NCBI GenBank assembly: GCA_963701965.1 | Contig: OY969695.1 | Coordinates: 2,944,001-3,008,000 of the forward strand | DNA length: 64,000 bases | Direction of reading: 5' to 3' | Source: an uncultured Gemmatimonadales bacterium | GTDB taxonomy: Bacteria; Gemmatimonadota; Gemmatimonadetes; Gemmatimonadales; Gemmatimonadaceae | Part shown: piece after piece, positions 19,798-42,699 of the stretch | How positions within the stretch are numbered: position 1 is the stretch's first letter | Layout of the letters: each line of letters begins with the position of its first letter | Made by a program: the position numbers and the translations under genes | Notes under the pieces: model-generated | Told to the model about the DNA's origin: nothing | What the model saw: only the letters and a program-made list of their open reading frames with translations | Databases searched by the model: none

Positions 19798-20160
19798 TCA
19801 CCCGGGCCGTGCGTCCGCCGCCGTGCGCGCCCAGGGGATGATATCCAACCGCTCGAACGGAATTTCGCCCCCGGTATGCTCGTCGCGCCCAAACCGCGCC
19901 GGCTCCGAATAGAGGCGGCGCAGCGCATCGTCGATCTCCGCTAGCTCGCGGGTCTCGCGCGCCGCCTCCGACGCATCCAGCTCCTCGTCCATCGTATCCG
20001 TTCCTTCATCGGCCAGATGAAACGGATAGTGGGAGAGGTCGCCCGCTTGGTCGGACGTCGACTCTCGCGTGCGGGCGTGGTACTGCTCCAATGCCCGGAC
20101 GACGCGCGTCCGCTCTTCCAGCAGTCGGCGCTCCAGGTACTCGCGTTGCTCCTTCGTCAT
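19798..20160 (-). CDS. TraR/DksA family protein lacking zinc-finger cysteines
   Basis: GDLSHYPFHLADEGTD...EIDDALRRL...FGRDEHTGGEIPFERLDIIPWAR. Confidence 0.85.
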   Translation of the reverse strand: MTKEQREYLERRLLEERTRVVRALEQYHARTRESTSDQAGDLSHYPFHLADEGTDTMDEELDASEAARETRELAEIDDALRRLYSEPARFGRDEHTGGEIPFERLDIIPWARTAADARPG

Positions 20161-22517: not shown

Positions 22518-23297
22518 ATGAGCGAGACCGTTCAGGCCGCGACTGACAGCGGGAAGTACGTCTACTGCATCGTCAGGAGCGATAAGCCACGGGATTTCGG
22601 GGACATTGGGATCGGCGGGAGTCGGCGCGTTTACACGGTGCAGCACAAGGATTTAGCCGCCGTGGTCAGCAATACGCCGATCGTCCTGTACGACCCCACC
22701 CGGGAGAACGTCCTCGCGCACGAGTTCGTGAACGAGACCGTGATGCGGGAGTTTACCGTTATCCCCATGAGCTTCGGGACGCTGTTCCGTTCCGAGGACG
22801 ACGTGACCGAGTTGCTCCGCTCCGCGTATCAAGCGTTCAACGACGTGTTGGACAAAATGCAGGACAAGATCGAGTTCGGTCTCAAGATCCTGTGGGACCG
22901 CGAAAAGGTCATCGCCAATCTCGAGCAGCAGAATGACGAGATCCGGCGGCTCAAGGACGAGATCACGAACAACGCGTCGTCCTCGACCTATTTCGCGCGC
23001 ATGCAGCTCGGGCGGTTGGTCGAGGCGGCGCTCGAGGAGACCGGCAACCGCCTGGTCGCCGAAGTGCACGAGGCGCTCAAGCCCATCGCCGTCGCCAGTC
23101 GCAGCAACAAGGTCATCGGAGACCGCATGATCATGAATGCGGCGTTCCTCGTCGACCGGGCACGGAGCGAAGAGTTCGACGAGGTGGTGCGTGTGGTCAG
23201 CCACCGCTACGACGAGCTGCTGACGTTCAAGTACACGGGCCCCTGGCCGCCGTACAACTTCGTCAACATCAAGCTCAAGCTCGAACGCGCGAGCTGA
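22518..23297 (+). CDS. gvpF: gas vesicle protein GvpF/GvpL family
   Basis: GKYVYCI, DLAAVVS, AHEFVNE..M..FTVIPMSFGT, MIMNAAFLV, YTGPWPPYNFV. Confidence 0.93.
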   Translation: MSETVQAATDSGKYVYCIVRSDKPRDFGDIGIGGSRRVYTVQHKDLAAVVSNTPIVLYDPTRENVLAHEFVNETVMREFTVIPMSFGTLFRSEDDVTELLRSAYQAFNDVLDKMQDKIEFGLKILWDREKVIANLEQQNDEIRRLKDEITNNASSSTYFARMQLGRLVEAALEETGNRLVAEVHEALKPIAVASRSNKVIGDRMIMNAAFLVDRARSEEFDEVVRVVSHRYDELLTFKYTGPWPPYNFVNIKLKLERAS

Positions 23298-23313
23298 GGG
23301 TCCGGGCGGCGCT

Positions 23314-23604
23314 ATGGGACTGCTGGCCAAGCTCTTGTTCTTTCCCGTGACGGGCCCCGTCGCCGGGATCCGCTGGACGCTCGGTCAGGTGCAGCGCGTC
23401 GCCGAGGAAGAGCTGACGGACGACACGGACATCAAACGGGACCTGATGGAGCTGCAGTTGCGCCTCGAGCTCGGCGAGATCGACGACTCGGCGTATGCGG
23501 CGGAAGAGGCCCGCATCATGGACCGGCTCCGCGCCGTGCGTGAGTGGCGGGAGCGGCTCGGGCGACCGACGAGCGGCGGGCCGGTGCGCGTCGCCGGGGA
23601 GTGA
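23314..23604 (+). CDS. gvpG: gas vesicle protein GvpG
   Basis: LLFFPVTGPVAGIRW...EEL.D...ELQLRLELGEIDDSAYAAEEARIMDRL. Confidence 0.9.
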   Translation: MGLLAKLLFFPVTGPVAGIRWTLGQVQRVAEEELTDDTDIKRDLMELQLRLELGEIDDSAYAAEEARIMDRLRAVREWRERLGRPTSGGPVRVAGE

Positions 23605-25460
23605 CCGGGCGGGCTCTCGATCAACTGCTCGACGCGCTGCCCCGATGGGTCATCGTTGGGGGCAAGGGAGGGGTCGGTAAGACCACGTGCGCGGTCGCGC
23701 TGGCCGCGCGGAGCGCCGCCCGTCACCACCAGACCCTGCTCCTCTCCACCGACCCTTCGCGCTCGCTCGGCGACGCGGTCGGGGAGTCCGTAGGGGCGGC
23801 GGCCGCCGCACTGCGGCGATACCCCGGCGTGTTCGCGCGGCAGCTCGACGCTGGTGTGGAACGGGAAGCGTTTCTCGCGCGGTGGCGGGAGGAGATCGTC
23901 ACCGTCGTCGATCGCGGGACCTATCTCGATCGCGAGGACATCGCGGGGTTGGTCGATGCCGCGTTGCCAGGGACCGACGAAGTCATGGCGGTGCTGTCGC
24001 TGGCCGACATCGCGGCCGAGGGCCAGTGGCGGCGCGTCATCGTGGACACGGCGCCCACGGGACATACCCTGCGGCTCCTCGCCCTGCCGGAGACGTTCCG
24101 GCTGGTCGTCGACCTGCTGGAGCGGATGCAGGAGAAGCACCGGTTTCTGGTGCGGGCGCTGACGCACCGGTATCGGACCGATGGCGTCGACGCCATGCTC
24201 GTCGAGTGGCGCGCGCGGATCGCGGCGCTGCGCGCGCTGTTCGCCGATCCGGCGGCCACGCGATTGGTCCTCGTTACGCGGGCCGAGCCCGTGGTGATCG
24301 CCGAGACCGGACGCTACGCCGCCGCGCTCCCCGCGCTCGGCATCGCCGCCGGCGCGGTGATCATCAACGCCGCCCCCGAGACAGCGGATCTCGTGGCGTT
24401 CTCGGACATTCTCCCCGACGTCCCCCACTACGTCGTGCCGTTGATTGCGGATCCGACGCCGGAAATCTGGGCGGCCCGCTTCGCGGCCGCCCCGCCGGCG
24501 CCGCCCCTCGGTGGAGTGCCCCGGGAGATCACAGGAGTGTCCGGGGAGAAAGTGGCGCGCGTAGCGCCGGCGGAGCCCGGCGCTACGGGCCCACAGGTGA
24601 AGGCCCTGACGATCGTCGGCGGAAAGGGCGGCGTTGGGAAGACGACAGTCGCCTGCGCGCTGGCAATCGAGGCCGCGCACGAGGGGCATCCGGTGCTGGT
24701 GGTGTCGACCGACCCGGCGCCGTCCGTGGGCGACGCCCTCGGCCTCGCTGTTGGCGACACCGAGGTCGCGATCGCCGATGCCCCGGGCTTATGGGCCCGC
24801 CAGGCCGACGCCACCGCGGCCTTCGCGGCTATCGAGCGCTCGTATCGCGACCGGGTCGACGCCGTATTTGATCGCCTGGTCGGCTCCGGTCTCGACCTGG
24901 CGCACGATCGCCGGATCCTGCGCGACCTCTTGTCGTTGGCGCCCCCGGGAATCGACGAGCTGTACGCACTCGCCGTGGTCGGCGAGATGCTGGACCAAGG
25001 CCGCTACGCGAACATCATCGTCGACCCCGCGCCGACCGGCCACTTGTTGCGCCTCCTCGAGACGCCGGCCGTGGCCCTCGATTGGAGCCACCGGATCATG
25101 CGCCTCATGCTCAAGTACAAAGAAGTCGGCGCGATGACCGACGCCGCCGGCGATATCGTGACCTTTGCCCGTCGCACCCGCGCCGTGCGGGATCTGCTAG
25201 CCGATCCCGCCCGCGCCGGTCTCATTCTGGTTGCCCTCGACGAGCCGATCGTGCGCCGCGAAGCCGGACGGCTCGCCGCCGCCGTCGGCGCGCTGGGCCT
25301 CGCGGTCCAGGCCGTCGTCTGGAACCGCGCCGATGGCACGGTCCCCCCACTGTCGGTCGCCCCATCGATCCCGCAGTTTGCGGCACCGCCGGAGGTGACC
25401 GGCCCCCGCGGCGTGTCCGCGATCCGGTCGTGGCGCGCCGGGTGGACGGCCATCCGTTAA
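23601..25460 (+). CDS. tandem two-domain ArsA/Get3 (SIMIBI) family ATPase
   Basis: Two GGKGGVGKTT P-loops, STDP switch I, PGTDE/PGIDE, DTAPTGH/DPAPTGH; GTGA overlap with gvpG. Confidence 0.93.
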   Translation: MTGRALDQLLDALPRWVIVGGKGGVGKTTCAVALAARSAARHHQTLLLSTDPSRSLGDAVGESVGAAAAALRRYPGVFARQLDAGVEREAFLARWREEIVTVVDRGTYLDREDIAGLVDAALPGTDEVMAVLSLADIAAEGQWRRVIVDTAPTGHTLRLLALPETFRLVVDLLERMQEKHRFLVRALTHRYRTDGVDAMLVEWRARIAALRALFADPAATRLVLVTRAEPVVIAETGRYAAALPALGIAAGAVIINAAPETADLVAFSDILPDVPHYVVPLIADPTPEIWAARFAAAPPAPPLGGVPREITGVSGEKVARVAPAEPGATGPQVKALTIVGGKGGVGKTTVACALAIEAAHEGHPVLVVSTDPAPSVGDALGLAVGDTEVAIADAPGLWARQADATAAFAAIERSYRDRVDAVFDRLVGSGLDLAHDRRILRDLLSLAPPGIDELYALAVVGEMLDQGRYANIIVDPAPTGHLLRLLETPAVALDWSHRIMRLMLKYKEVGAMTDAAGDIVTFARRTRAVRDLLADPARAGLILVALDEPIVRREAGRLAAAVGALGLAVQAVVWNRADGTVPPLSVAPSIPQFAAPPEVTGPRGVSAIRSWRAGWTAIR

Positions 25461-26245
25461 GGAGCACTACGCTGTTCTACGTCTACGGCATCGTTCCGCG
25501 AGCACTCGACATCCGCGCCGCACCTCCCGGCATCGACGGCGAACCGGTGACCGTCGTCGGCGCGGGCGCTGTCGCGGCGTTGGTGTCCGAGCTCCCGCCC
25601 GACACGTACGATCCCCAGCGCCTCGAGTCCTTGGTCGCCGATGTCGCCTGGCTCGCGCCGCGTGCCATCGCGCACGACACCGTCGCCAGTTGGGCGAGCG
25701 AGCATGGCGGGTCGATCCCGTTTCCGATGTGGGTGCTGTTTCGGGACACCGCGTCCGTCCGTAATCATCTCGAGCCGCGATCGGCCGAGTATGCCGAAGT
25801 CATCGACCGCGTGGCGCTCGGTCGGGAGTATGCCGTGCGCGTGTTCGGGCTCGACGATCAACTCGGGCCCCGGCTCACGGAATTGAGTCCCGCGGTGGCG
25901 CGCTTGGAAGCGGAGATCGCCCAGGCCACGCCGGGCCAACGGTATCTCTTGGAACGGAAGCTCGCCGGCTTGAGGAGCGCCGAGTTGCGCGAGGCCACGG
26001 CCAAGATCGCCACGACGATTCATAGCGAGCTGACCCACGTCTCCGCCGGCAACTTCCAGGGCACTCTGCCCCGCCGCGAGGACGGCGCAAACGCCGCGGC
26101 GATCTTGAACGGCGCCTATCTCGTGCGGCGCGATGCCTTCGAGCCCTTTCAAGCGCGGCTGACCGATCTCATGCGCCGGTTCACACCGCTCGGATTCCGG
26201 TTCGAATTCACCGGCCCGTGGCCGCCGTATCATTTCGTCCAGTGA
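25442..26245 (+). CDS. gvpL: gas vesicle protein GvpL/GvpF family (start uncertain)
   Basis: LFYVYGIV, WLAPRAIAHD, PGQRYLLERKL, ILNGAYLV, FTGPWPPYHFV. Confidence 0.9.
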   Translation: MDGHPLRSTTLFYVYGIVPRALDIRAAPPGIDGEPVTVVGAGAVAALVSELPPDTYDPQRLESLVADVAWLAPRAIAHDTVASWASEHGGSIPFPMWVLFRDTASVRNHLEPRSAEYAEVIDRVALGREYAVRVFGLDDQLGPRLTELSPAVARLEAEIAQATPGQRYLLERKLAGLRSAELREATAKIATTIHSELTHVSAGNFQGTLPRREDGANAAAILNGAYLVRRDAFEPFQARLTDLMRRFTPLGFRFEFTGPWPPYHFVQ

Positions 26246-26424
26246 GTAGCGACGCGGACGAACGACTCATTCTGAGCGACCTGATCAACCGGGTGCTGGA
26301 CAAGGGTGTCGTGCTGAGCGGCGACGTCGTGATTTCGGTCGCCGATATCGACCTCGTGCGACTCGAGCTGCATCTCCTGCTGAGCGCGGTCGAGACCGCT
26401 GTACGCAAGATCGAGCCGCGATGA
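26242..26424 (+). CDS. gas vesicle GvpA/J/S family protein (GvpS-like)
   Basis: LSDLINRVLDKGVVLSGDVVISVADIDLV; GTGA overlap. Confidence 0.88.
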   Translation: MSSDADERLILSDLINRVLDKGVVLSGDVVISVADIDLVRLELHLLLSAVETAVRKIEPR

Positions 26425-27050
26425 GTCCGACGTATCTGTATTGCATCACGCAGCCGATCGCCGCCGGACCGCCATCCGAGACCGCGGGAGTGGATGACAC
26501 GCCGGTCCGGCGATTGGCCGACGCCTGGGTCAGCGACGTCCCCTCACTCGTCGTGCGTCCGACGGTGGACCGCATTCGCGCGCATGACGCGGTGGTGGCG
26601 ACGGCGCTGGATACGGGCACCACGCCGCTGCCGGCGCGATTTGGTCAGACGTTTGCGACCGATGCCGCTTGTGTGCAAGCCCTCGCCGGGCGCGGTGACG
26701 CGTTGCGAGTCGCACTCGCGCGCGTCGACGGATGTGTCGAGATGACGGTCCTGTTGCACGCGGAAACCGGTACGGAGACCGATTCCGACGCGTCGATGGG
26801 GCCGGGCCGGCGGTATCTCGAGCGATTGGGTCGATTAGCGGCGGCCGGGCGACGGGTGGACGCGGCGGTCGCGCCGCTGCTCCGGGCGGCAAAGACCAAG
26901 GACGCGACAGTGTCGCATCTCATCGCACGCGAGGCCCTGACGGCGTATCGCGCGCGTATGGATGCCGTCGCGGGTACCTTGGGAGGCATTACGGTCCGCC
27001 TCGTGGGTCCGGCGGCCCCTTATTCGTTCGGAGCGGTCGATGAGCAGTGA
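26421..27050 (+). CDS. gas vesicle protein GvpL/GvpF family, third paralog
   Basis: TYLYCI, AHDAVV, PLPARFGQ, GPGRRYL, VGPAAPYSF. Confidence 0.85.
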   Translation: MSPTYLYCITQPIAAGPPSETAGVDDTPVRRLADAWVSDVPSLVVRPTVDRIRAHDAVVATALDTGTTPLPARFGQTFATDAACVQALAGRGDALRVALARVDGCVEMTVLLHAETGTETDSDASMGPGRRYLERLGRLAAAGRRVDAAVAPLLRAAKTKDATVSHLIAREALTAYRARMDAVAGTLGGITVRLVGPAAPYSFGAVDEQ

Positions 27051-27357
27051 AGGTGAAATGGGGCGGTCCCTGCGCGACGTGGCGCCCGCGCTGCCGCAAC
27101 GGATCGACGCCGATCCTGAGCACGTCGAGCAGGGACTCGCCCGTCTCGCCTTGACCTTGATCGAGTTGGTCCGTAAGGTCCTTGAGCACCAGGCAGTCCG
27201 GCGCATGGACGGCGGCACCTTGACACCCGAAGAGATCGAGCGTCTCGGACTGGCTTTGCTCAAGTTGAACGATCGGATGCAGGACCTGAAAACCACGTTC
27301 GGACTCTCCAATGATGATTTGGAGATCGACCTCGGACCACTTGGACGGCTCGGATGA
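27040..27357 (+). CDS. gvpK: gas vesicle protein GvpK
   Basis: VEQGLARLALTLIELVRKVLEHQAVRRMDGGTLTPEEIERLGLAL...DLEIDLGPLG. Confidence 0.93.
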   Translation: MSSEGEMGRSLRDVAPALPQRIDADPEHVEQGLARLALTLIELVRKVLEHQAVRRMDGGTLTPEEIERLGLALLKLNDRMQDLKTTFGLSNDDLEIDLGPLGRLG

Positions 27358-27378
27358 CGCCGGGTTGGAGTTGACGTC

Positions 27379-27702
27379 TTGTCAGATTTCGTATCCCCGA
27401 CGCGGAGCCATGGACTGGTCGAGATTCTCGACCGCGTGCTCGACAAAGGCCTGGTCGTTGCCGGCGACATCAAGGTCAATCTGGCGAACGTCGAGTTGCT
27501 CACCATCCAAATCCGGTTGCTCATTTGCTCCATCGACAAAGCGGAGCAGATCGGGTTGAACTGGTGGCGTCACGACCCGCGGTTGACCGCGGGCCCGGTC
27601 GGCATGGGCGGGTACGTTCCCGGCGCCGACCTCGCCGATCGGCTGGCACGAATCGAGCGACAGCTCGACAAGCTCACTGGCACACAACCGGAGTCCTTGT
27701 AA
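27379..27702 (+). CDS. gvpJ: gas vesicle protein GvpJ
   Basis: [54 protein letters not shown] start with GGAG upstream. Confidence 0.9.
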   Translation: MSDFVSPTRSHGLVEILDRVLDKGLVVAGDIKVNLANVELLTIQIRLLICSIDKAEQIGLNWWRHDPRLTAGPVGMGGYVPGADLADRLARIERQLDKLTGTQPESL

Positions 27703-28011
27703 ATGGCCGTCGAACGCTCCCCGAGTGGTAGCTCCCTGATCGATGTCCTCGACCGCGTGCTGGATAAGGGCATCGTGATCGATGCCTGGGTGCGGGTCTC
27801 GCTGGTGGGGATCGACTTGGTGACCGTCGAGGCGCGGATCGTCGTCGCCTCGATCGACACGTACCTCAAGTACTCGGAAGCCGTGGGTATCACGTCCCCG
27901 GTTTCCCGGCCGCGCGAGTCACTCATGGCGGCGACGGCCGAGGCGGAACTGGATCGGGTTCGGCTCGAGAACGCCGAGTTGCGGCGCCGACTCGAGCTGC
28001 AGCGGCCCTAG
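27703..28011 (+). CDS. gvpA: major gas vesicle structural protein GvpA with C-terminal extension
   Basis: [53 protein letters not shown]. Confidence 0.95.
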
Positions 28012-28027: not shown

Positions 28028-30310
28028 GTGAGCGTTGCGGCGCACGACGACGCCGAACACACCGACGCGGGCGCGCTCCTCGAGTTCCTGGCCACGCTCA
28101 CGGAAGCTCCGGACAGCGCGACGGCGGCAACGTATCTGTTGTCGCAGTTGGTGGGGCGGACGCCCGGCGCGACCGGGCGCGCGTTCGCCATGCTGTTGGA
28201 CGTCACTCAGGAGACGTTGGCCGCGACGGCGACGCTCGGCATGTTGCCGGCCGAGTTGCCGGACGAGCCGGTGTCGATCACCAATGAGCGGCATCCGCTG
28301 GTCGTCTCGGCGCTCACCCTGACCACGGTCATCGGGTCCGGCGCGCGCTACGACATCCCGTTCACGGGATGGATGGTGTTCCCGCTGCCCCAGCCGACGT
28401 TCCGTGGTGCGCCGGCGCCGATTCCCAGCCACCGCGCTTCGGCGTTAGCGGCCAGCGTCAACGCGACGCCGGGGCCGGCGATCTTGCGGCCCGGCCAGGC
28501 GCCCGCCGGTGTCGTCGTCGTGGAAGGGTTGCCCGGCACGCCGGAGGATCTCGTCTTTCTCGCGCGCTTGGCGGCGCTGGCGGGACCGGTGTTGGCGCGG
28601 ATCGCGGCGGCCGGCCGGACGGATGACATGACGGACCGGTTGCGACAGCAGCGGGACCGGCTCCGCATGATGATCGATGCGCTGCCCGATCCGATCGTCA
28701 TCACCGACGCGGCGAACGACATCGTCGTGCAGAACGCGCGGGCCGAGCAGCTGCTCCACGCCCGGGAAGGCGACTCGCAAGGACGGCGGCGCGCTGTCGA
28801 GATCAACAACTTGCTCTTCACGTCGTATCTGTCGAAGGCGATGATGACGGGGCCGACCAAGCAGAGCGGCCCGCGGGAGTTGAATCTCGTCGACCCGAGC
28901 GAAGGCGCCGACATTTTGTTCGAGGTGCTCGCCCATCCCTTGAGCGAGCACGTGGATCGGAAAGGCGCGTTCCTCTCGGTGCTCCGCGACGTGACCGATC
29001 TCCGGCGCGCGGTGAACGAGTTGGAGCGGCACATGCAGCGGCTGCGGCTCGCCGAGATCGACGCGACGCGCGAGCGGGACCGGCTGAATCTCATCCTCGA
29101 GAATGTCGCCGATCCGATTCTCGTGACCGACGACCGGTCGAACATCATCCTGATGAACGATCAGGCCGAGCGGCTCTTCGAGATGGCGCCGGCGACGCCG
29201 GCGGCCACGGCGCGCGCCCGCCGCGCCCAGGCGCAGGCCGTCCGCGGCAACGACATGAAGTTCACGTCCTTCATCTCGGACTTCGCCATGGCGACGGCCA
29301 TGTCCCACCGGGCCGAGATGATGTTGACGCGGCCGGAGACCGGTGATGCGCTGCCCATGGAGGTCGTGTCCGGCAAGATCCGGAACGATCGCAACGAGCC
29401 CGTGGCCATCGTGTCCGTGCTGCACGATCTCACCAAGCAAGTGGAGAACGCGCAGCTCTACGAGGAGTTGAAGCGGTTCAGCGAGGATCTCGAGGCGCGC
29501 GTGCGCGCCGCCACCGGCGATCTCGCCGAACAGAATGCCAAGCTGCAGTGGCAGGCCCAGGAAGTGGAGCGGGCCAATACGCTCAAGTCCGAGTTCTTGG
29601 CCAGCATGTCACACGAGCTCCGCACGCCGATCAACGCGGTGCTCGGGCACACCGCGAACCTGATCGACAGCATCTACGGCGACGTGCGGCCCGCGCAGCT
29701 CGACATGCTCAAGCGCATCCGGGCCGCCGCCAACCATCTCCTGGCGTTGATCAACGACATCCTCGATCTGGCCAAGATCGAAGCCGGCAAGATGCCGTTG
29801 CGCATCGAGAGCGTGAGCTTGAGCGCCGTCGTCATCGAGATCTCGCAGCAGATCGAGCCGCTGATCCGGCGGAAGGGGCTCAACTACGTCACGCAGGTAC
29901 CGACGGATTGTCCGGCGCTGCGCACCGATCGGACGAAGGTGAAGCAGGTCCTGCTCAACTTGCTCTCCAACGCGATCAAGTTCACGCCGCGCGGCACCAT
30001 CACCCTACGCGCCGAGTGCGCGAACGAGTCCGTGCGCATCATGGTGATCGACACCGGGATCGGGATCAAAGAGAAGGACATGGAGGTGATCTGGGAGGAC
30101 TTCCGGCAGGTCGATCAGACGCTGATTCGCGAGTATGGCGGCACGGGTCTCGGTCTCAGCATCACCCGCAAGCTGCTCGACCGGCTCGGCGGCACGGCCG
30201 ACGTCCGCAGCGAATACGGCCGGGGGACGACGTTCACGGTGGTGCTGCCCTGGCGCGTCGACGAAGAGATGGCATTGACGACGCCCGTGGAGCAGCGGGC
30301 GATCTCGTAG
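28028..30310 (+). CDS. cytoplasmic sensor histidine kinase, two PAS domains plus HisKA and HATPase
   Basis: FLASMSHELRTP (H box), NLLSNAIKFT (N), DTGIGI (G1), GGTGLGL (G2); two PAS-like repeats; no obvious TM. Confidence 0.93.
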   Translation: MSVAAHDDAEHTDAGALLEFLATLTEAPDSATAATYLLSQLVGRTPGATGRAFAMLLDVTQETLAATATLGMLPAELPDEPVSITNERHPLVVSALTLTTVIGSGARYDIPFTGWMVFPLPQPTFRGAPAPIPSHRASALAASVNATPGPAILRPGQAPAGVVVVEGLPGTPEDLVFLARLAALAGPVLARIAAAGRTDDMTDRLRQQRDRLRMMIDALPDPIVITDAANDIVVQNARAEQLLHAREGDSQGRRRAVEINNLLFTSYLSKAMMTGPTKQSGPRELNLVDPSEGADILFEVLAHPLSEHVDRKGAFLSVLRDVTDLRRAVNELERHMQRLRLAEIDATRERDRLNLILENVADPILVTDDRSNIILMNDQAERLFEMAPATPAATARARRAQAQAVRGNDMKFTSFISDFAMATAMSHRAEMMLTRPETGDALPMEVVSGKIRNDRNEPVAIVSVLHDLTKQVENAQLYEELKRFSEDLEARVRAATGDLAEQNAKLQWQAQEVERANTLKSEFLASMSHELRTPINAVLGHTANLIDSIYGDVRPAQLDMLKRIRAAANHLLALINDILDLAKIEAGKMPLRIESVSLSAVVIEISQQIEPLIRRKGLNYVTQVPTDCPALRTDRTKVKQVLLNLLSNAIKFTPRGTITLRAECANESVRIMVIDTGIGIKEKDMEVIWEDFRQVDQTLIREYGGTGLGLSITRKLLDRLGGTADVRSEYGRGTTFTVVLPWRVDEEMALTTPVEQRAIS

Positions 30311-34348: not shown

Positions 34349-35056
34349 ATGGCCGACGAGACCGTGCTGGTGATCGACGACGAGCCTCAGATCCGGCGTG
34401 TGGTGCGGAACGCCCTCAAGGACGAGGGCGACGTGGCGCGAACCATCGAGGCCGGGACGGGCGCCGAGGGGATTGATCTGGCGGCGGCCGAGCGCCCCGC
34501 CCTCATCGTGCTCGATCTGGGGCTCCCCGACATGGCGGGCGAGGCGGTGTGCCGCGAGATCCGTTCGTGGTCGACGGCGCCCATCATCATCCTCTCGGCC
34601 CGGCACTCCGAAAAGGAGAAAGTCGCGCTGCTCAATGCCGGCGCTGACGACTACATCACGAAGCCGTTCAGCACCGTCGAATTTCAGGCGCGCGTCCGCG
34701 CCCAGCTGCGCCGCGCCCGTCTGGCGGGCGCCGGCGACACCGGCGAGCCGCTCACGCTCGGCAACGGCGTGGTGACGATCGACGTGCGCAAGCCGCAGCT
34801 GCTCAAGAACGGCGCCAGCGTGCACCTGACCCGCACCGAGTGGGAGCTGCTCCGGGTGATGGTCGCCCATGCCGGCCGGACGTTGACGCATCGCGAGTTG
34901 TTCACCGCCGTGTGGGGCAACTCCTTTGGCGACGCCCAGCAGTATTTGCGGGTCCACATTCGGAGCCTCCGCCGGAAGATGGAGCCCGACCCGGTGCGCC
35001 CGCGCTTCATCGTGACCGAGCCCGGCGTGGGGTATCGCCTCGAACCCGCGGTCTAA
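34349..35056 (+). CDS. kdpE: KdpE response regulator (OmpR family)
   Basis: VIDDEPQIRR, LDLGLPD, GADDYITKPF, YLRVHIRSLRRKMEPDPVRPRFIVTEPGVGY. Confidence 0.93.
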   Translation: MADETVLVIDDEPQIRRVVRNALKDEGDVARTIEAGTGAEGIDLAAAERPALIVLDLGLPDMAGEAVCREIRSWSTAPIIILSARHSEKEKVALLNAGADDYITKPFSTVEFQARVRAQLRRARLAGAGDTGEPLTLGNGVVTIDVRKPQLLKNGASVHLTRTEWELLRVMVAHAGRTLTHRELFTAVWGNSFGDAQQYLRVHIRSLRRKMEPDPVRPRFIVTEPGVGYRLEPAV

Positions 35057-36583
35057 ATGGCCAAAGCCGGGCGCACCGTCGAGGCCGTGCTGTGGGTCGT
35101 GGCGCTGGGCATCGTGGCGTTTGGCATGGCCCTCGTCCGCCAACGGCTCAACGAAGCCCACGTCGCGCTGACCTTTCTGCTGGTGATTCTCGGCGGCAGC
35201 GCGCGCGGCGGCCGCACGCTGGGCCTGCTGTTGGCGGCCACCGCGTTCGTGCTGTTCGATTGGTTCTTCCTGCCGCCGTACGGCAACCTGATCGTCGCCA
35301 ATCCGATCGACTGGCTCGTGCTCGCGGTGTTCCTGGCCACGAGCGTGGTCGCCGCGCAGCTGCTCTATCGGGCGCAGGAGGAAGCGGCGCGGGCCGAGCG
35401 CCGCGCCGTCGAGATCGACCGCCTGGCCTCGCTGGGCGCCGAGACGTTGAACGCCGGTCAACCGGAAGACGCCCTCTTCGCTGTCGCCCAGGTCATCCGC
35501 ACGAGCTTGGGCGTCGACCAATGCATCATCTTCCCCCGCGAATCGCCGCCCGCCGTGACACAGTCCCCGGCGGGCGTGCCCCCCGATCCCGCGATCACGC
35601 CCGGGCTCGTGGCCTGGATCTTTGCCCATGGCACGGAAGCCGTCTTGTCCGCCGACGGCACGACGCGGCTGGCGTGGGACGGCCCGGCCCGCCTCGACAA
35701 CGCGCCCAATGCGCGGGCATTGCTGCGGGCGCTGCGCGTGCGGGACCGCACCGTCGGGGTGGTCGCGATCATCGTCGCCGAGGGTCTCCAGCTCGACGCC
35801 GAGCAACGGCGCGTGTTCGAGGTGCTCTCGTACTATGCGGCGCTTGGCGTGGAGCGGGTCCGGCTGGTGGCCGACGCCCAGCACACCGAGGCGCTCCGCC
35901 AAGCCGATCATCTCAAGGACGCCCTGGTCGCCTCGGTGTCGCACGATCTGCGCACGCCCTTGACCACGATCAAAGCGCTGGCCCACAATGTGGCCGCGGG
36001 CGGCGACGAGCGGGCCATGATCATCGAGCACGAGGCCGACCGGCTGAACCGGTTCGTCGGCGATCTCCTCGATCTGTCGCGCATTCAGGCCGGCGCGTTG
36101 ACGTCGAATCCGGAGCCCAACGAAGTCGAGGATCTCGTCGGAGCCGCCTTGCGGCGAGTCTCCGGAGTCGCCGGCCATCGCGAGATCGCCGTCTCGTTGG
36201 ACAGCCGGTTTCCCGTGCTCATCGGACGATTCGACTTCAGCGAGACGCTGCGCGCGCTGGTCAATCTGCTGGAGAACGCGCTCAAGTACGGGGCCGCGGA
36301 CGGCGGCGTCACGCTCACGGTGCGGCGCGACGGCGAGATGATCGCCTTCGAGGTCGCCGACCGCGGGCCCGGGATCCCCGAGTCGGAGCGCGAGCGCGTC
36401 TTCCAGGCTTTCTATCGCCCGCCCGGGACATCGCCGGACGTCGGCGGCGCCGGGCTCGGCCTGTCGATTGCGCGCAGTCTCATCGAGGCCCAGGGCGGCA
36501 CGGTGACATACGCGGAGCGCCCTGGCGGTGGCAGCGTCTTTACGCTGCGCGTTCCGTTGTTGGAGGCCGTCGGCGAAAGCTGA
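35057..36583 (+). CDS. kdpD: KdpD C-terminal moiety (4-TM DUF4118, GAF, histidine kinase)
   Basis: FDWFFLPPY TM motif, SVSHDLRTPLT, NLLENALKY, DRGPGI, GLGLSI; lacks N-terminal KdpD/USP domains. Confidence 0.9.
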   Translation: MAKAGRTVEAVLWVVALGIVAFGMALVRQRLNEAHVALTFLLVILGGSARGGRTLGLLLAATAFVLFDWFFLPPYGNLIVANPIDWLVLAVFLATSVVAAQLLYRAQEEAARAERRAVEIDRLASLGAETLNAGQPEDALFAVAQVIRTSLGVDQCIIFPRESPPAVTQSPAGVPPDPAITPGLVAWIFAHGTEAVLSADGTTRLAWDGPARLDNAPNARALLRALRVRDRTVGVVAIIVAEGLQLDAEQRRVFEVLSYYAALGVERVRLVADAQHTEALRQADHLKDALVASVSHDLRTPLTTIKALAHNVAAGGDERAMIIEHEADRLNRFVGDLLDLSRIQAGALTSNPEPNEVEDLVGAALRRVSGVAGHREIAVSLDSRFPVLIGRFDFSETLRALVNLLENALKYGAADGGVTLTVRRDGEMIAFEVADRGPGIPESERERVFQAFYRPPGTSPDVGGAGLGLSIARSLIEAQGGTVTYAERPGGGSVFTLRVPLLEAVGES

Positions 36584-36614
36584 TATGCAGGGGCGTCGGT
36601 GACGACGCCCGATA

Positions 36615-36663
36615 TTCACGAAACATTTATGACGCGGTAGCGCGCCCCTACGCGGTCTTCATG
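36615..36663 (+). promoter_or_regulatory. candidate KdpE binding direct repeats (YYYAYG-N5-YYYAYG, twice)
   Basis: TTCACG-N5-TTTATG (36615-36631) and CCTACG-N5-TTCATG (36647-36663) upstream of the kdpFABC operon. Confidence 0.4.
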
Positions 36664-36686
36664 GCGAGCGCGTTACGATTGCGACC

Positions 36687-36803
36687 ATGTACGATCTCCT
36701 GTACCTGGGCGTCACGCTCGTCTTCTTCGGCCTGATGCTCGCGTTTGTGCGCGGTCTCCAAGTCCTGGGCCGCGACGCCGCTATTGAGGAGCACGACTCG
36801 TGA
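36687..36803 (+). CDS. 38-aa single-TM peptide upstream of kdpF
   Basis: MYDLLYLGVTLVFFGLMLAFVRGLQVLGRDAAIEEHDS; stop overlaps kdpF start (GTGA); below ORF-track size cutoff. Confidence 0.7.
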   Translation: MYDLLYLGVTLVFFGLMLAFVRGLQVLGRDAAIEEHDS

Positions 36804-36889
36804 CCGCCAATGCTGTGATCGGCGCGCTCGTTTCCGTGGCGCTGCTCGTCTATCTCGTCTACACCCTGCTCCGGCCGGAGAAGTTCTGA
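36800..36889 (+). CDS. kdpF: K+-transporting ATPase subunit F
   Basis: MTANAVIGALVSVALLVYLVYTLLRPEKF (YL...L..PEKF signature), GAGGAG RBS. Confidence 0.93.
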   Translation: MTANAVIGALVSVALLVYLVYTLLRPEKF

Positions 36890-36890
36890 C

Positions 36891-38582
36891 ATGACCGCCA
36901 ACGGCTGGGCGCAGATCCTGTTCTTTTCCGTCGTCATCCTCGCCCTGACGAAACCCGTCGGCGTGTATCTCGTCGGCGTCTACGACGGCTCGCTGCGCTG
37001 GCTGCGCCCGATCGAGCGCTTGCTGTACCGGTTGTCCGGCGTCGACGAGACCGAAGAACAGCATTGGACGCAGTACACCGCGGCCATGCTGCTCTTCAGC
37101 GCCGCGACGATGCTCGTCACCTATTTGGAGCTGCGCCTGCAGCACGTCTTGCCGCTCAACCCGGAGCATCTGGCCGCGGTCACCGATCGGCAGGCGTTCG
37201 AGACGGCGGCCTCGTTCACGACGAACACGAACTGGCAGTCGTACGCCGGGGAGACGACGATGTCGTACTTCTCGCAGATGACCCAGCTCGCGTTCCACAA
37301 CTTCGCCTCGGCCGCCGTCGGCATGTCGGTAGCCGTCGCGCTGGTGCGGGGCATTGCCCGCCGCTCCGGCGGCCGGCTCGGCAACTTCTGGGTCGATCTC
37401 ACGCGCGGGACGCTGTACGTCCTGATCCCGTTCTCGATCGTGCTCGCGCTCCTGTTCGTCCAGCAGGGCGTGATCCAGAACTTCCACGCCTACGTGCACG
37501 CCGCCACGCTCGACGGCGGCGCGCAGACGCTGCCGATGGGACCGGTGGCCAGCCAAGAAGCGATCAAGCAGTTGGGCACGAACGGCGGCGGATTCTTCAA
37601 CGTCAATGCCGCGCATCCGTTCGAGAACCCGACGCCCTGGAGCAACTTCCTGCAGATGGTGGCGATCTTCGTGATCCCCGCCGGGCTCGTGTACATGTTC
37701 GGCCGGATGGTGAAGAGTCCCAAGCACGGTTGGGCGGTGTGGACGGCGATGTTCGTCCTCTTCTTCGCCGGCACGACGACGGCCTACTGGGCCGAGGCGC
37801 GGGGGAATCCCATTCACCAGCAGCTCGGGGTGATGGGCGGCAACATGGAGGGCAAGGAGGTGCGGTTCGGCATCGCCAACTCCGCCCTCTACGCCACGGT
37901 CACCACCGACGCCTCCTGCGGCGCCGTGAACGCGATGCACGACTCGTTCACGCCCATCGGCGGGCTGGTGCCGATGGTCAACATCCAGTTGGGCGAGTTG
38001 GTGTTCGGCGGCGTGGGCGCCGGCCTCTACGCGATGATCATCGAGATCGTCCTCGCGGTGTTCATCGCCGGGCTCATGGTCGGGCGAACGCCCGAGTACC
38101 TCGGCAAGAAGATCGAGAGCCGGGAGATCCGCATGGTCATGCTGTACATCCTCGTCTATGCGACCATTGTGCTGGTCTTCACCGCGGTGTCCGTCGTCGT
38201 GAAACCGGGACTGGCGGGTCTCAACAACGCGGGACCGCACGGCTTCTCCGAGATCTTGTACGCGTTCAGCTCGACCGTCGCCAACAACGGCAGCGCGTTC
38301 GGCGGCCTCACCGGGACGACGTACTACTACAACACGATGTTCGGACTGGCCACGATGTTCGGCCGGTTCGCGATGATGGTGCCCGCGCTGGCGCTGGCCG
38401 GGTTTCTGGCCGAGCGGCGGGCGGCGCCGGCGACCGCGGGGACATTCCCCGTGACGACGCCGTTGTTCGTGGTGTTGCTCCTCGGCGTGATCGTGATCGT
38501 GACGGCGCTGACGTTCTTCCCCGCGCTGTCGCTCGGTCCGATCGTCGAACACTTCCTCATGCAAGCCAGGACGCTTTTCTAG
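36891..38582 (+). CDS. kdpA: K+-transporting ATPase subunit A
   Basis: [41 protein letters not shown]. Confidence 0.98.
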
Positions 38583-38583
38583 T

Positions 38584-40698
38584 ATGGCCGCCACTGCCCG
38601 TCCGCTCTTCGACCCGCCGATCGTCCAGCGGGCCATCCGCGATGCGTTCGTGAAGCTCGACCCGCGTCACATCGTGCGGAACCCCGTCATGTTCGTGGTC
38701 ATGGTCGGGAGCGTGCTCACGACCCTGGTCGTGATCCGCGACGCCGTGACCGGAGTCGGCGATCTCAAGTTCTCGGTCCAGCTCACGCTATGGCTATGGT
38801 TCACCGTCCTGTTCGCGAACTTCGCCGAAGCGATGGCCGAGGGGCGCGGCAAGGCGCAGGCCAATGCGTTGCGGAAGTCGCGCACCCAGACGGTGGCCCG
38901 GCGGCTCGAGGCGCGCGACGACCGCACGGCCTATGACATGGTCCCGTCGCCGTCGCTCGTCAAAGGCGACCTGGTGCTGGCTTTGCCGGGCGACGTGATC
39001 CCGGGCGATGGCGACGTCGTCGAAGGCGTGGCCTCGGTCGACGAGTCGGCCATCACGGGCGAGTCGGCGCCGGTCATCCGCGAGTCGGGCGGCGACCGCT
39101 CGGCCGTCACCGGCGGGACCAAAGTGTTGTCGGACTATCTCGTGGTGCGCATCACGGCCAACGCCGGCGAGACGTTTCTCGACCGGATGATCGCGCTCGT
39201 CGAGGGCGCCTCGCGGCAGAAGACGCCCAACGAGATCGCGCTCACCATCCTGCTGTCCGGGCTCACCATCGTGTTTCTGCTCGCGGTGGTCACGCTGCAG
39301 CCCTTCGCCATCTATAGCGGCACCGCGATCAGCATTCCGGTCCTCGTGGCCCTGCTGGTGTGTCTCATCCCGACGACGATCGGCGGACTCTTGTCGGCCA
39401 TCGGCATCGCGGGGATGGATCGCGTCATCCAACAGAACGTGATCGCCATGAGCGGGCGGTCGGTCGAAGCCGCCGGCGACGTCAACACCCTGTTGCTCGA
39501 CAAGACGGGAACCATCACCCTGGGCAACCGCCAAGCGGTGGAATTCGTGCCCATGCCCGGCGTCACCATCGAGCAGCTGGCCGACCGGGCCCAGCTCGCT
39601 TCACTGGCCGACGAGACGCCCGAGGGGCGCAGCATCGTGGTGCTGGCCAAAGAGAAGTTCGGGCTGCGGGGCCGCCAACTGGGCGACGCGGAGAGCGGAG
39701 CGCTGGTGCCGGCGCTGGTCGGCGCGGGCGAGGCCCAGGCGCGCGACGTCGAGTTCGTGCCGTTCCAGGCGGCCACGCGCATGAGCGGCGTGAATCTCCG
39801 CGGCGGCGCGGCGCTCCGGAAAGGCGCCAGCGATACGATCGACGCCTGGGTGCGCGAGAACCACGGGGTGATCCCGTCCGAGCTGGCAACCGCCGTCGGG
39901 CGCATCGCCCGCGAGGGCGGCACCCCGTTGGTCGTCGCCGAAAAGGCCGACGACCAGACCCGGGTGCTGGGCGTGATCTATCTCAAGGACATCGTGAAAG
40001 GCGGAATGCGCGAGCGCTTCGACCGCCTACGCGCGATGGGCATTCGCACGGTGATGATCACGGGCGACAATCCGCTGACCGCGGCCGCGATCGCCCAGGA
40101 AGCCGGCGTCGACGACTTCCTCGCCGAGGCGAAACCCGAGGACAAGATGGCGCTCATCCGGCGCGAACAGGCCGGAGGCCGCCTCGTGGCCATGACGGGC
40201 GACGGCACGAACGACGCGCCGGCCTTGGCCCAGGCCGACGTGGGCGTCGCCATGAATACCGGCACGCAGGCCGCCAAAGAGGCGGGGAACATGATCGACC
40301 TCGACTCCAATCCGACGAAGCTGATCGAGATCGTGGAGATCGGGAAGCAGCTGCTCATGACCCGGGGCTCGTTGACGACGTTCTCCATCGCCAACGACGT
40401 GGCCAAGTACTTCGCGATCATCCCGGCGATGTTCGTCGTCACGTTCCCGGTCCTCCAGGCGCTCAACGTGATGCGTCTCCACTCGCCGAACTCGGCGATC
40501 CTGGCCAGCGTGATCTTCAACGCGCTGATCATCGTCGCGTTGATCCCGTTGGCCCTGCGCGGGGTGCGCTACCGGCCCATGGGCGCGGGCGCGATCCTGC
40601 GCCGCAATCTCCTCGTGTATGGCGTCGGCGGCATCATCGTGCCGTTCATCTTCATCAAGCTGATCGACATGCTCCTCGTCGCAGCGCATTTGGTCTGA
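38584..40698 (+). CDS. kdpB: K+-transporting ATPase subunit B
   Basis: [29 protein letters not shown]. Confidence 0.98.
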
Positions 40699-40700
40699 CC

Positions 40701-41297
40701 ATGATCCGCAAGCATATCCGTCCCGCGATCATGATGACGCTCCTGCTCATCGTGATCACCGGCTTCGTGTACCCTGGCATCGTCACAGGTCTGGCGCAGG
40801 TGTTGTTTCCCCGGCAGGCCAACGGCTCGCTGCTGGAGTCGGCGGCGGCGCCGGGCAAGATCATCGGCAGCGCGTTGATCGGGCAGCAGTTCACGTCGGC
40901 GGCCTATTTCCACCCGCGGCCGTCGGCGGCCGGGTCGGGCTACGTCGGCGACTCGTCGTCGGGGACGAACAAGGGACCGACCGACCGCAAGCTGACCGAC
41001 ACGTTGATCGCCCAGGCGATCGACAGCGCGGTGGCCCATGACGGCGCGGTCAAAGGGCAAATCCCGGCCGACATGGTCACGTCATCGGCGTCGGGTTTGG
41101 ATCCGGATATCTCGCCGGCCAATGCCCAGCTCCAAATTCCGCGCGTCGCCAAGACGCGCGGGGTCAGCGACGACCGCGTCCGCGCGCTCGTCGCCCAGCG
41201 CACGCAGGACCGCCAGTTCGGCTTCTTCGGCGAACCCCGCGTCAACGTGCTGCTGCTCAACCTGGCGCTCGATTCCATCGCGCCCATGCCCCACTGA
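40701..41297 (+). CDS. kdpC: K+-transporting ATPase subunit C
   Basis: YPGIVTGLAQVLFPRQANGSL, YFHPRPSA, SASGLDPDIS, GEPRVNVLLLNLALD. Confidence 0.96.
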   Translation: MIRKHIRPAIMMTLLLIVITGFVYPGIVTGLAQVLFPRQANGSLLESAAAPGKIIGSALIGQQFTSAAYFHPRPSAAGSGYVGDSSSGTNKGPTDRKLTDTLIAQAIDSAVAHDGAVKGQIPADMVTSSASGLDPDISPANAQLQIPRVAKTRGVSDDRVRALVAQRTQDRQFGFFGEPRVNVLLLNLALDSIAPMPH

Positions 41298-41318
41298 CCT
41301 GAAACCAAAACAATCCCC

Positions 41319-42678
41319 ATGAATCGTTCCTGGTGTGCGGGCGCCCTGCTGTTGACGCTGGGCGCCCACCGGGCGCTTGCCCAGGCCTCGGACAGTACCA
41401 AGACGGACAGCACCAAGCACAAGCCCGAGCCATTCGCGTTCGCCGATTTTAGTTGGCTCAATGGCAACAGCCGGGAAAACCCGGTCATCGACACCAAGTA
41501 TTTCACGGGCGAGATCCGTGTGGATGCCAGTTACATCTGACGACTGGGCGCGCCCCAAAGATCACACGCTCGACGGTGCCGCGGAGAGCGGCCGAACGAG
41601 CGAGTTTCAGGTACAACAATTCGGGATCGGCGGGGATTTCCACTGGAATAATGTCCGCGCGCGTCTCATGACGCAGTTCGGCGCCTACTCCGAGGACACG
41701 CCACGCAACGATGCGAGCCCGGCGCGCGGGCAGTTCCAGCTGGATAACGCCTATCGGTATCTGTCCGAAGCCTATGGCGGCTATCACTGGGACGTGTGGA
41801 ACGGCATCAACCTCGACGCCGGCATCTTCATGTCCTACGTCGGGCTGTTCAGTTACTACAACTTCGACAACTGGGCCTATCAACCGTCGTACGTGTCGGC
41901 GAACACGCCGTGGTTCTTCAACGGCCTCAGAATCCAGACCTTTCCGAGCCAGAAGCTCAAGATCGAGTATTGGATCGTGAACGGTTGGCAGTCCTACGGC
42001 ATGTTCAACGAGACGCCGGGCTTCGGTACGCAGATTCTGTGGCGGCCGACAGGACGGCTCGAGTTCCTGACCAACGACTACTGGGGCTACGACACGCCAG
42101 GGAACCCGCACCGAGCGCGCATTCACAGTGACAACAGCTTTCTCTACAAGTACTACGACAACCCGAACCACTTCTTCAATCGGGCCGCGTTCTCGGTCAC
42201 CGGCGACATTGGGTGCGAGAGCGGCGGCGGCGTGAACTGCACGAGCACGAGCGACGGCCATCCGGCCCAGAACTTCTTGGGCTTCATGCTCTATCACCGC
42301 GCCTGGTTCGCCGAGAACCACCTCGGGCTCACCGTGGGCGGCGGCGAGATCACGAACCCCGGACGGTATCTCGTGCTGCTGCCGCCGATCAACGGCGCCA
42401 CCGCGGCATCGGGTACGCCGTACTTCACCGCCAACCCGGGTGACAAGTTCCAAGCCTGGGACTCGTCGGTCACGTTCGACTACATGCCGCAGGATCAGAT
42501 CACGTTCCGCGCCGAGGTGATCCACCGGGCGGCGAACGTGCCGTACTTCGTCGGTTCGGGCGGCATCACACCGACCGGCGGCAACGTAGGGGCCCCCGGC
42601 TCCATCGTGCCCGGCTTTACCCCGGACCTTCGCAAGACTGAAACGCGTATCAATCTGGCCCTGCTGGTCAAAATCTGA
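41319..42678 (+). CDS. outer-membrane beta-barrel porin (BBP2/OmpL-like); frameshift at about 41538
   Basis: Signal peptide and PFAFADFSWLNGN in one frame, continuing as an aromatic-rich barrel (EAYGGYH, DAGIFMSYVGL, NTPWFFNG) in the next. Confidence 0.8.
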
Positions 42679-42699
42679 CGCTCGCGGCAATATGCGCTG

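What the first reader, a model, noticed from the sequence alone, without database searches (positions are those of the whole stretch)
22518..28011. Gas vesicle operon with no GvpN/GvpO/GvpC but an embedded Get3/ArsA-family ATPase
Seen: nine mostly tightly spaced, co-directional genes (gvpF-gvpG-ATPase-gvpL-gvpS-like-gvpL-gvpK-gvpJ-gvpA) with several 4-bp start/stop overlaps. The cluster is bounded by a divergent peptidase upstream and a kinase plus a convergent gene downstream, so it appears complete. No AAA+ GvpN, GvpO/R or GvpC is recognisable, and gvpA is last. Established: GvpN is the usual ATPase of cyanobacterial, haloarchaeal and Bacillus clusters, and actinomycete clusters lack gvpN. 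Inference: this is a distinct gas-vesicle-like assembly system in which a SIMIBI ATPase fills the chaperone/energy role. It may make nanostructures with a function other than buoyancy. I cannot verify how far this architecture has already been described.
Basis: partly seen in the sequence, partly recalled or inferred. Interest (0 to 1): 0.85.

Follow-up and report, generated by a model that had tools for sequence, protein, structure and literature searches.

The report
GvpN-less gas-vesicle operon, optional Get3-like ATPase
This is a real ten-gene gas-vesicle operon that lacks the usual GvpN motor; its Get3-like ATPase is an optional extra that likely chaperones the water-repelling vesicle proteins rather than replacing GvpN, and the gene link was already published in 2010 but, in the papers searched, never tested.

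Summary
Nine co-directional genes (gvpF-G-ATPase-L-S-L-K-J-A) lie at 22518-28011, and the 95%-complete one-contig Gemmatimonadaceae-like genome has no gvpN or gvpO hit and none for gvpC (uncontrolled). The boundary is wrong: the PAS kinase 16 bp behind gvpA is conserved in 18 of 19 relatives and belongs to the unit. The interpretation mostly fails. The two-domain ArsA/gvp link, including a gvpN-free acidobacterial cluster, was published in 2010 (PMC2963123). Ten of 19 related clusters lack both the ATPase and gvpN, with gvpG abutting gvpL. Across seven phyla the ATPase sits in 18 of 40 gvpN-positive and 21 of 46 gvpN-negative clusters, so there is no anticorrelation. The kinase is what marks the gvpN-less type (27 of 39 against 0 of 32). 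The ATPase has two intact P-loops, a Get3-type insert, and none of the arsenic-binding cysteines; it is likely an accessory chaperone. Core genes are under strong purifying selection and GvpA is a canonical shell protein, so the operon would likely make small bicone vesicles. This scan has noted the same thing in at least 24 genomes. Ordinary member of a known but untested type.

The parts
22518..23297 (+). gvpF (GvpL/GvpF family, 259 aa; an in-frame ATG at 22497 is an alternative start)
   Evidence: PF06386 E 2.8e-79; 59-81% identical in relatives; dN/dS 0.00-0.02 in three pairs of relatives
23314..23604 (+). gvpG (96 aa, hydrophobic N-terminal helix)
   Evidence: PF05120 E 4.3e-21; alignment A3; Kyte-Doolittle peak 1.59 at residues 1-19
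23601..25460 (+). two-domain Get3/ArsA-family ATPase (619 aa): P-loops at 21 and 341, switch I Asp51 and Asp371, switch II DTAP at 149 and DPAP at 475, Get3-type insert in both halves, no arsenic cysteines, no CxxC; optional gene
   Evidence: present in 9 of 19 related clusters; dN/dS 0.15-0.20
25442..26245 (+). gvpL (second GvpL/GvpF-family gene; start codon uncertain)
   Evidence: PF06386 E 9.1e-52; present in 19 of 19 related clusters
26242..26424 (+). small GvpA-family gene, GvpS/GvpM-like (60 aa)
   Evidence: PF00741 E 5.9e-14; best NCBIfam GvpM, under cut-off
26421..27050 (+). third GvpL/GvpF-family gene (209 aa), fastest-evolving and itself optional
   Evidence: PF06386 E 4.6e-27; not found in 6 of 19 related clusters; dN/dS 0.25-0.27
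27040..27357 (+). gvpK
   Evidence: PF05121 E 3.9e-32
27379..27702 (+). gvpJ-like GvpA-family gene (107 aa)
   Evidence: PF00741 E 3.8e-16; NCBIfam GvpA/GvpJ hits under cut-off
27703..28011 (+). gvpA, major shell protein (102 aa, about 30-residue C-terminal extension)
   Evidence: NF006874 117 bits over cut-off 100; 48 of 70 residues identical to the shell protein of PDB 8GBS, counted from the alignment
   Evidence: Pfam; follows gvpA in 18 of 19 relatives and in Acidobacteriota, Myxococcota, Rokubacteria and Chloroflexota loci; these kinases group together in a quick tree; GAF-likeness is a lead only

Best explanation
This is a ten-gene gas-vesicle operon (gvpF-G-ATPase-L-S-L-K-J-A-kinase) of a widespread type without gvpN, in which the two-domain Get3-like ATPase is an optional accessory that likely acts as an ATP-cycled chaperone for the hydrophobic Gvp proteins rather than as a stand-in for GvpN. 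Shown: gene content, absence of gvpN from the genome, intact nucleotide motifs, Get3-type insert, patchy presence, co-occurrence with GvpN elsewhere, purifying selection. Inferred from studied clusters: GvpF and GvpG escort GvpA, GvpL/K/J/S nucleate the tip, GvpA polymerises into the gas-tight shell; without GvpN the product would stay at the small bicone stage. Inferred from Get3 biology: the two fused halves form a pseudo-dimer whose groove would shield a hydrophobic segment (GvpA, J or S hairpin, or the N-terminal helix of the translationally coupled GvpG) and release it on ATP hydrolysis, raising yield or lowering toxic aggregation without being required. The kinase likely controls expression through a partner encoded elsewhere.
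For: DTAP-to-DP spacing 67 and 60 residues against 53 and 40 in E. coli ArsA and 71-72 in Get3-type proteins (counted from alignments); model (pLDDT 91.8) shows long helices 153-188/195-215 and 479-505/513-534; best sequence match in the PDB is the two-domain algal ArsA1 5ZME (176 against 127 bits for E. coli ArsA; 384 against 314 with a profile); Cys113/172/422 not matched, only Cys30 and Cys352 in the protein. Optional: 10 of 19 related clusters have gvpG directly before gvpL and no orthologue in the genome, with both states inside one genus. Beside GvpN in 18 of 40, often with Hsp20 and a CDC48-like AAA protein. Farkas et al. 2019 propose general chaperone function for bacterial tandem Get3 homologues; Iburg et al. 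2024 describe F/G chaperoning of GvpA and GvpN's role in elongation. gvpN mutants make only small bicones.
Against: No binding, ATPase or expression data exist here. The fold search ranks arsenic-type ArsA chains (9NBW, 9NBO, 9NBL) above 5ZME, TM about 0.6 for all, so the overall fold does not separate the two kinds. The Get3 zinc CxxC is missing in this lineage (0 of 119). The client is unknown. The same ATPase type lies away from gvp genes in 3 of 13 sampled cyanobacteria and in L060, and in Myxococcus xanthus (PMC2963123), so it may be a general stress chaperone. Whether this operon makes any vesicle is untested; a GvpN-less Streptomyces coelicolor cluster has not been seen to.
Confidence: 0.58

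Rival explanations
1. The ATPase replaces GvpN as the energy source for vesicle growth and defines a distinct assembly system.
For: Only ATPase in the operon and no gvpN in the genome; coupled to gvpG in 9 of 9 relatives that have it; 6 of 7 gvpN-negative Acidobacteriota clusters carry it.
Against: 10 of 19 related clusters lack both, with the same core; 18 of 40 against 21 of 46, Fisher p 1.0, descriptive only since kin are not independent; one ATPase clade serves both cluster types; unrelated fold and no ring-motor architecture (recalled); the 2010 paper already lists it beside gvpN in five species.
Confidence: 0.08
2. The ATPase is a general stress chaperone that is co-expressed with the gvp genes to cope with the proteotoxic load, with no specific Gvp client.
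For: Travels with Hsp20 and a CDC48-like AAA protein in gvpN-positive clusters; found away from gvp genes in G751, G763, G781 and L060; holdase proposal in PMC6593721; weaker selection than the core (0.15-0.20 against 0.00-0.13 for F, G, K, J, A).
Against: In the phylum sample it never occurs without the cluster (10 of 10 orthologues inside it); 11 of 12 high-scoring two-domain loci in the cross-phylum scan lie in gvp clusters; fixed position behind gvpG in six groups.
Confidence: 0.18
3. The ATPase is a nucleotide switch that positions or counts vesicles, or feeds the kinase, in the manner of MinD/ParA-type SIMIBI proteins.
For: SIMIBI P-loops with weak ParA/MinD hits; lineage-wide change of switch II in the second half (DPAPTGH in 119 of 119) suggests asymmetric halves; haloarchaeal clusters have an NTP-binding regulator, GvpD.
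Against: Get3-type groove helices are kept; 15 of 27 kinase-type clusters lack the ATPase and many ATPase clusters lack the kinase; no membrane-targeting or DNA-binding feature seen.
Confidence: 0.13
4. It is an arsenic-efflux ArsA that landed in the operon.
For: Two-domain layout; database names 'arsenite-transporting ATPase'; top fold hits are ArsA.
Against: No metalloid cysteines; TIGR04291 192 bits against cut-off 650; separate from arsenic-type proteins in the tree; no ars genes noted among the neighbours scanned.
Confidence: 0.02

Closest known systems
gvp-associated two-domain ArsA homologues, clusters 4 and 6 of Castillo and Saier 2010 (PMC2963123), above all Aba1 of Acidobacteria bacterium Ellin345
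   Same: About 620-640 aa, two ATPase halves, no Cys113/172/422, inside a gvp cluster; the acidobacterial cluster is listed with L/F, J, K and M genes and no gvpN; role in vesicle biogenesis proposed
   Different: The paper has no Gemmatimonadetes example (0 occurrences), does not mention the kinase in the passages read, and does not report that the gene is optional; three L/F genes here
Bacterial tandem Get3 homologues, groups 7 and 8 of Farkas et al. 2019 (PMC6593721), and algal ArsA1 (PDB 5ZME)
   Same: Two Get3 domains in one chain, insert in both, predicted hydrophobic groove, chaperone role proposed
   Different: No CxxC here (like group 7, unlike group 8); the paper makes no link to gas vesicles (0 occurrences of 'gas'); no tail-anchored client known here
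Streptomyces coelicolor gvpOAFG-JLSK cluster (PMC9501494 table; PMC4982088)
   Same: No gvpN, no gvpC; same core F, G, J, L, S, K, A; vesicle formation uncertain
   Different: Has gvpO, no ATPase and no kinase (0 of 7 sampled actinomycete genomes had either in the cluster); its GvpA is reported as divergent, whereas this one is canonical
Bacillus megaterium, Serratia 39006, Anabaena and haloarchaeal gvp clusters
   Same: All core assembly families (A, F/L, G, K, J, S/M); Serratia also embeds regulators
   Different: All have GvpN, needed for cylinders; 10 of 13 sampled cyanobacterial clusters have this ATPase as well, next to gvpN
E. coli ArsA arsenical pump ATPase
   Same: Fold, two fused halves, P-loop and DTAP motifs
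   Different: No metalloid cysteines, Get3-type insert present, no ars operon

Membership tests
gas-vesicle (gvp) gene cluster | major shell gene gvpA with the conserved coil-alpha-beta-beta-alpha core | tested here: met
   NF006874 over cut-off; 48 of 70 identical to 8GBS, E 5.9e-27
gas-vesicle (gvp) gene cluster | essential accessory genes F, G, K, L and two GvpA paralogues (J, S/M) | tested here: met
   Pfam PF06386 x3, PF05120, PF05121, PF00741 x3
canonical buoyancy cluster (cyanobacteria, haloarchaea, Bacillus, Serratia) | AAA+ ATPase GvpN | tested here: not met
   controls
canonical buoyancy cluster (cyanobacteria, haloarchaea, Bacillus, Serratia) | GvpC and GvpO/R (not universal) | tested here: inconclusive
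   GvpO not found by two profiles; GvpC not found but no positive control
gas-vesicle (gvp) gene cluster | forms gas-filled, pressure-collapsible vesicles | not testable with these tools
   needs microscopy and collapse assays
gvp-associated two-domain ArsA homologues (Castillo and Saier clusters 4/6) | two domains, about 600-650 aa, encoded among gvp genes, no ars genes | tested here: met
gvp-associated two-domain ArsA homologues (Castillo and Saier clusters 4/6) | lack of Cys113, Cys172, Cys422 | tested here: met
   alignment to 1F48; cysteines only at 30 and 352
gvp-associated two-domain ArsA homologues (Castillo and Saier clusters 4/6) | groups with cyanobacterial and acidobacterial gvp-linked homologues apart from arsenic ArsA | tested here: met
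   41-row clade, local support 100, FastTree only; the paper's own named sequences were not fetched
Get3/TRC40-like chaperones | TRC40 insert with extended groove helices | tested here: met
   spacing 67/60 against 53/40 in ArsA and 71-72 in Get3; long helices in the model; hydrophobic surface not measured
Get3/TRC40-like chaperones | zinc-binding CxxC dimer motif (eukaryotic cytosolic Get3; not universal) | tested here: not met
   0 of 119 close homologues with two P-loops; present in many distant ones
Get3/TRC40-like chaperones | binds and delivers hydrophobic helices, ATP-dependent | not testable with these tools
   needs biochemistry; the complex predictor was not available
arsenical pump ArsA | metalloid-binding cysteines and TIGR04291 cut-off | tested here: not met

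The most novel reading that the evidence does not exclude
The gvpN-less, kinase-tailed operon is a second, ancient class of gas-vesicle system, spread over at least five phyla and under strong purifying selection, that is built to stop at tiny bicone vesicles too small to float a cell; under control of a dedicated GAF-PAS-PAS kinase these serve a non-buoyancy role (gas exchange, osmotic or drying stress), and the Get3-like ATPase is a dedicated Gvp chaperone that could raise vesicle yield in engineered hosts.
Probability: 0.25. Interest if true: 0.7.

Novelty: new member of a known kind. Interest (0 to 1): 0.28.

Why it matters
The ATPase-gvp link is old news and the replacement idea fails, so the finding as written is ordinary. 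Two things keep some value. First, natural pairs of near-identical operons with and without the ATPase (even within one genus) make a 2010 hypothesis directly testable. Second, about half of the sampled clusters lack gvpN although reviews call it universal, and most of those outside actinomycetes carry a dedicated kinase; finding out what such operons build addresses the long-standing question of why non-floating bacteria keep gvp genes, and might give naturally small vesicles or a helper chaperone for ultrasound reporter work.

Tried and rejected
Replacement of GvpN by the ATPase: rejected on counts. Arsenic pump: rejected. Decaying cluster: rejected, dN/dS 0.00-0.27 for all genes in three pairs of relatives; the window's own lineage has no close enough partner and was not measured. 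Gain or loss of the ATPase: the core tree interleaves both states but its backbone support is 33-84, so direction and number of events are not claimed. Promoter/terminator scan: 0 promoter-like sites, 6 terminator-like against 3.8 +/- 2.2 by chance, uninformative. Sequencing runs: none was listed, no RNA holder listed. Complex prediction of ATPase with GvpG: tool not available, no result. The listing of cluster members gave no organism names. Ramsay 2011 (PMC3169117) is not held, so the domain make-up of Serratia GvrB/GvrC was not checked. Literature searches for a description of this operon in Gemmatimonadota, for gvpN-less acidobacterial clusters and for newer surveys showed, at listing level, nothing beyond PMC2963123; subscription journals and supplements were not seen and may hold more. 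Halobacteriota, Bacillota, Bacteroidota and Pseudomonadota were not sampled by phylum.
Full report
Observation. There are three 4-bp overlaps and J abuts A. An M28 peptidase runs the other way upstream. The named close homologues of the ATPase are Gemmatimonadaceae proteins. The genome is one contig of 5.12 Mb, 94.96% complete. It has no GvpN (best 22.7 bits, cut-off 266.8), and the same model passes its cut-off in 6 of 14 and 39 of 67 other genomes. GvpO was not found by Pfam or by my own profile; GvpC was not found but that search had no positive control. The three GvpA-family genes and the one true ArsA-family gene of the genome are those of this operon.

The boundary. The kinase at 28028-30310 starts 16 bp after gvpA on the same strand. 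It follows gvpA in 18 of 19 related clusters, and a kinase of the same layout follows gvpA in Acidobacteriota, Myxococcota, Rokubacteria and Chloroflexota loci, often with a single receiver domain behind it. In several of these the order is a circular permutation, J-A-kinase-receiver-F-G-ATPase-L-S-L-K. In a quick tree 34 of 34 kinases that follow gvpA fall in one group of 36 rows (local support 95) with two intruders, one gappy and one long-branched. His529 is conserved; the N-terminal 200 residues look GAF-like, a lead only. So the unit has ten genes. No receiver lies beside it in this window.

Relatives. Of 301 genomes of the phylum, 22 have a GvpA-family match and 20, the window's genome included, have three; the two left out are G186 (only F, A, kinase in the fetched stretch) and G289 (one weak match, no gvp genes by tblastn). 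Of the same 301, 68 have some ArsA-family match but only 10 have the full-length orthologue at E under 1e-100; 5 of the other 58 were fetched and had no gvp genes nearby. All 9 relatives with the orthologue have it directly behind gvpG; in the other 10 clusters gvpG is followed directly by gvpL, and a profile search found no match at E 1e-40 in those 10 genomes. None of the 21 genomes has GvpN over cut-off (best 38 bits). Both states occur in genus g25, and the core tree interleaves them, with weak backbone support. One orthologue (G269) is split in two frames. Two of the nine ATPase-bearing relatives (G155, G095) are unpublished genomes; without them the count is 7 of 17.

Other phyla. A scan of about 1/64 of the genome collection gave 80 ArsA-family loci; 12 scored over 350 bits on my profile and 11 of those lie among gvp genes; two Chlorobiaceae loci have a single-domain form inside gvp clusters. 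For an unbiased count I picked genomes by gvpK alone: 10 of 221 Acidobacteriota, 10 of 201 Myxococcota, 14 of 101 Cyanobacteriota, 20 of 201 Chloroflexota, 11 of 201 in the phylum of a Desulfobacteraceae genome, 7 of 111 Actinomycetota (phylum names follow the record titles of the centre genomes). I dropped the four centres that had been chosen through the ATPase (G303, G304, G310, G312) and G900 (under cut-off), added the 19 relatives, and annotated the fetched stretches with my own profiles and the genomes with TIGR02640 and alignment A1. Result (states entered by hand from those outputs): the ATPase is in the cluster in 18 of 40 gvpN-positive and 21 of 46 gvpN-negative genomes; counting it anywhere in the genome, 23 of 40 and 21 of 46. 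There is no anticorrelation. By contrast the kinase follows gvpA in 0 of 32 gvpN-positive and 27 of 39 gvpN-negative genomes where gvpA was in view; 12 of those 27 have the ATPase. Without the three unpublished genomes (G155, G095, G860): 18 of 43 and 24 of 36. Caveats: kin are not independent; about ten gvpN-negative genomes outside the window's phylum have the cluster at a contig end and may have lost gvpN to assembly; G381 and G417 were counted as in-cluster although the cluster is split over two contigs, and G1009 has a single-domain form. ATPases from gvpN-positive and gvpN-negative clusters form one clade of 41 rows apart from arsenic-type proteins (FastTree, local support 100). In gvpN-positive clusters the ATPase often travels with Hsp20 and a CDC48-like AAA protein.

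The ATPase. Both P-loops (21, 341) and both switch I aspartates (51, 371) are intact; switch II is DTAPTGH in the first half and DPAPTGH in the second, the latter in 119 of 119 close homologues with two P-loops, of 120 examined. The cysteines that bind arsenic in E. coli ArsA are not matched and the protein has only Cys30 and Cys352. The distance from switch II to the following DP motif is 67 and 60 residues, against 53 and 40 in E. coli ArsA and 71-72 in Get3-type proteins (my counts), which is the TRC40 insert. The model (pLDDT 91.8, pTM 0.90) has long helices there. The best sequence match among solved structures is the algal two-domain ArsA1, 5ZME, but the fold search puts arsenic-type chains first with similar TM-scores, so the fold alone does not decide. 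No CxxC in this lineage. dN/dS in three pairs of relatives is 0.15-0.20 for the ATPase, 0.00-0.13 for F, G, K, J and A, 0.07-0.09 for the kinase in two pairs (one pair includes unpublished G155): kept by selection, more loosely than the core.

How it likely works. GvpA has 48 of 70 residues identical to the solved shell protein 8GBS, so it should form a gas-tight shell (inference). Studied clusters show F and G escorting GvpA, J and S at nucleation, and GvpN needed to turn bicones into cylinders (PMC11445434, PMC9501494, PMC4982088; passages). An operon without GvpN would then be expected to give small bicones (inference). The ATPase has the anatomy of a Get3-like holdase (PMC6593721 proposes a general chaperone role for such bacterial proteins; abstract and passages) and behaves genetically as an optional helper. 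I commit to an accessory ATP-cycled chaperone for hydrophobic Gvp proteins (0.58); a general stress chaperone (0.18), a switch or positioning factor (0.13), a GvpN substitute (0.08) and an arsenic pump (0.02) are the rivals. No binding was shown or modelled; the complex predictor was not available.

What is known. Castillo and Saier 2010 (PMC2963123; abstract, passages and section 3.12 read) report two-domain ArsA homologues without the arsenic cysteines in gvp clusters of four phylum groups, beside gvpN in Polaribacter, Pelodictyon, Geobacter, Anabaena and Nostoc, and in an acidobacterial cluster listed without it; they propose that ArsA and GvpN energise distinct steps. My searches (listings only, except the papers named) found no experimental test and no description of the Gemmatimonadota operon or of the kinase link; subscription journals and supplements were not seen. 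Also read as passages: PMC9994262, PMC7376271, PMC7204071, PMC10344784, bioRxiv 2023.09.17.558112. This scan holds 28 earlier findings with the same words in at least 24 genomes; the 8 shown agree with the reading I had reached before looking, and they are not independent evidence.

Verdict. Real operon, wrong boundary, replacement idea refuted, link already in print. New member of a known kind; interest 0.28. The more interesting residue is the gvpN-less, kinase-tailed cluster type itself, whose product nobody appears to have seen.

Noticed in passing
G000:C1:1410700-1411365 (-), locus L222:5701-6366: Orphan GvpL/GvpF-family gene (PF06386, 92.6 bits) far from the operon, between a methyltransferase and a Ser/Thr kinase, near a histone-deacetylase-family gene and a GAF histidine kinase.
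   Followed up: partly
window 34349-43848: Potassium-uptake kdp locus (response regulator, KdpD-type kinase, kdpA, kdpB, porin, separate KdpD sensor N-terminus) 4 kb past the kinase; not a conserved neighbour, 12 of 20 fetched relatives have an adenylosuccinate-synthase-like gene behind the kinase instead (the name is read from the sequence start).
   Followed up: partly
L064, L065, L068, L144, L149, L156-L159, L161, L164-L169, L171, L188, L193: gvpN-positive clusters often carry a CDC48-like double AAA ATPase, many also Hsp20, beside the Get3-like ATPase: a whole protein quality-control kit attached to vesicle assembly.
   Followed up: partly
L138, L140, L141 (Acidobacteriota): Same order as the window, F-G-ATPase-L-S-L-K-J-A, but without the kinase behind gvpA.
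   Followed up: partly
L055 (G186), L038 (G269), L036 (G129): Signs of erosion in some relatives: only F, A and kinase left in L055; ATPase split over two frames in L038; no gvpF hit before gvpG in L036.
   Followed up: no
L062 and L156 (G306): One Terriglobia genome holds both cluster types, a kinase-type without gvpN and a gvpN-type, each with its own ATPase of this family.
   Followed up: partly
window 27895-28008: GvpA ends in a roughly 30-residue charged, helix-like extension conserved in the family (alignments reach residue 98 of 102); it might brace the shell from outside in the absence of GvpC (speculation).
   Followed up: no
window 19798-20157 (-): Small ORF that reads like a DksA/TraR-type protein without the zinc-finger cysteines (recalled likeness; no Pfam hit).
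   Followed up: no
window 4582-5308 (-): PIN/Phd-YefM type II toxin-antitoxin pair.
   Followed up: no
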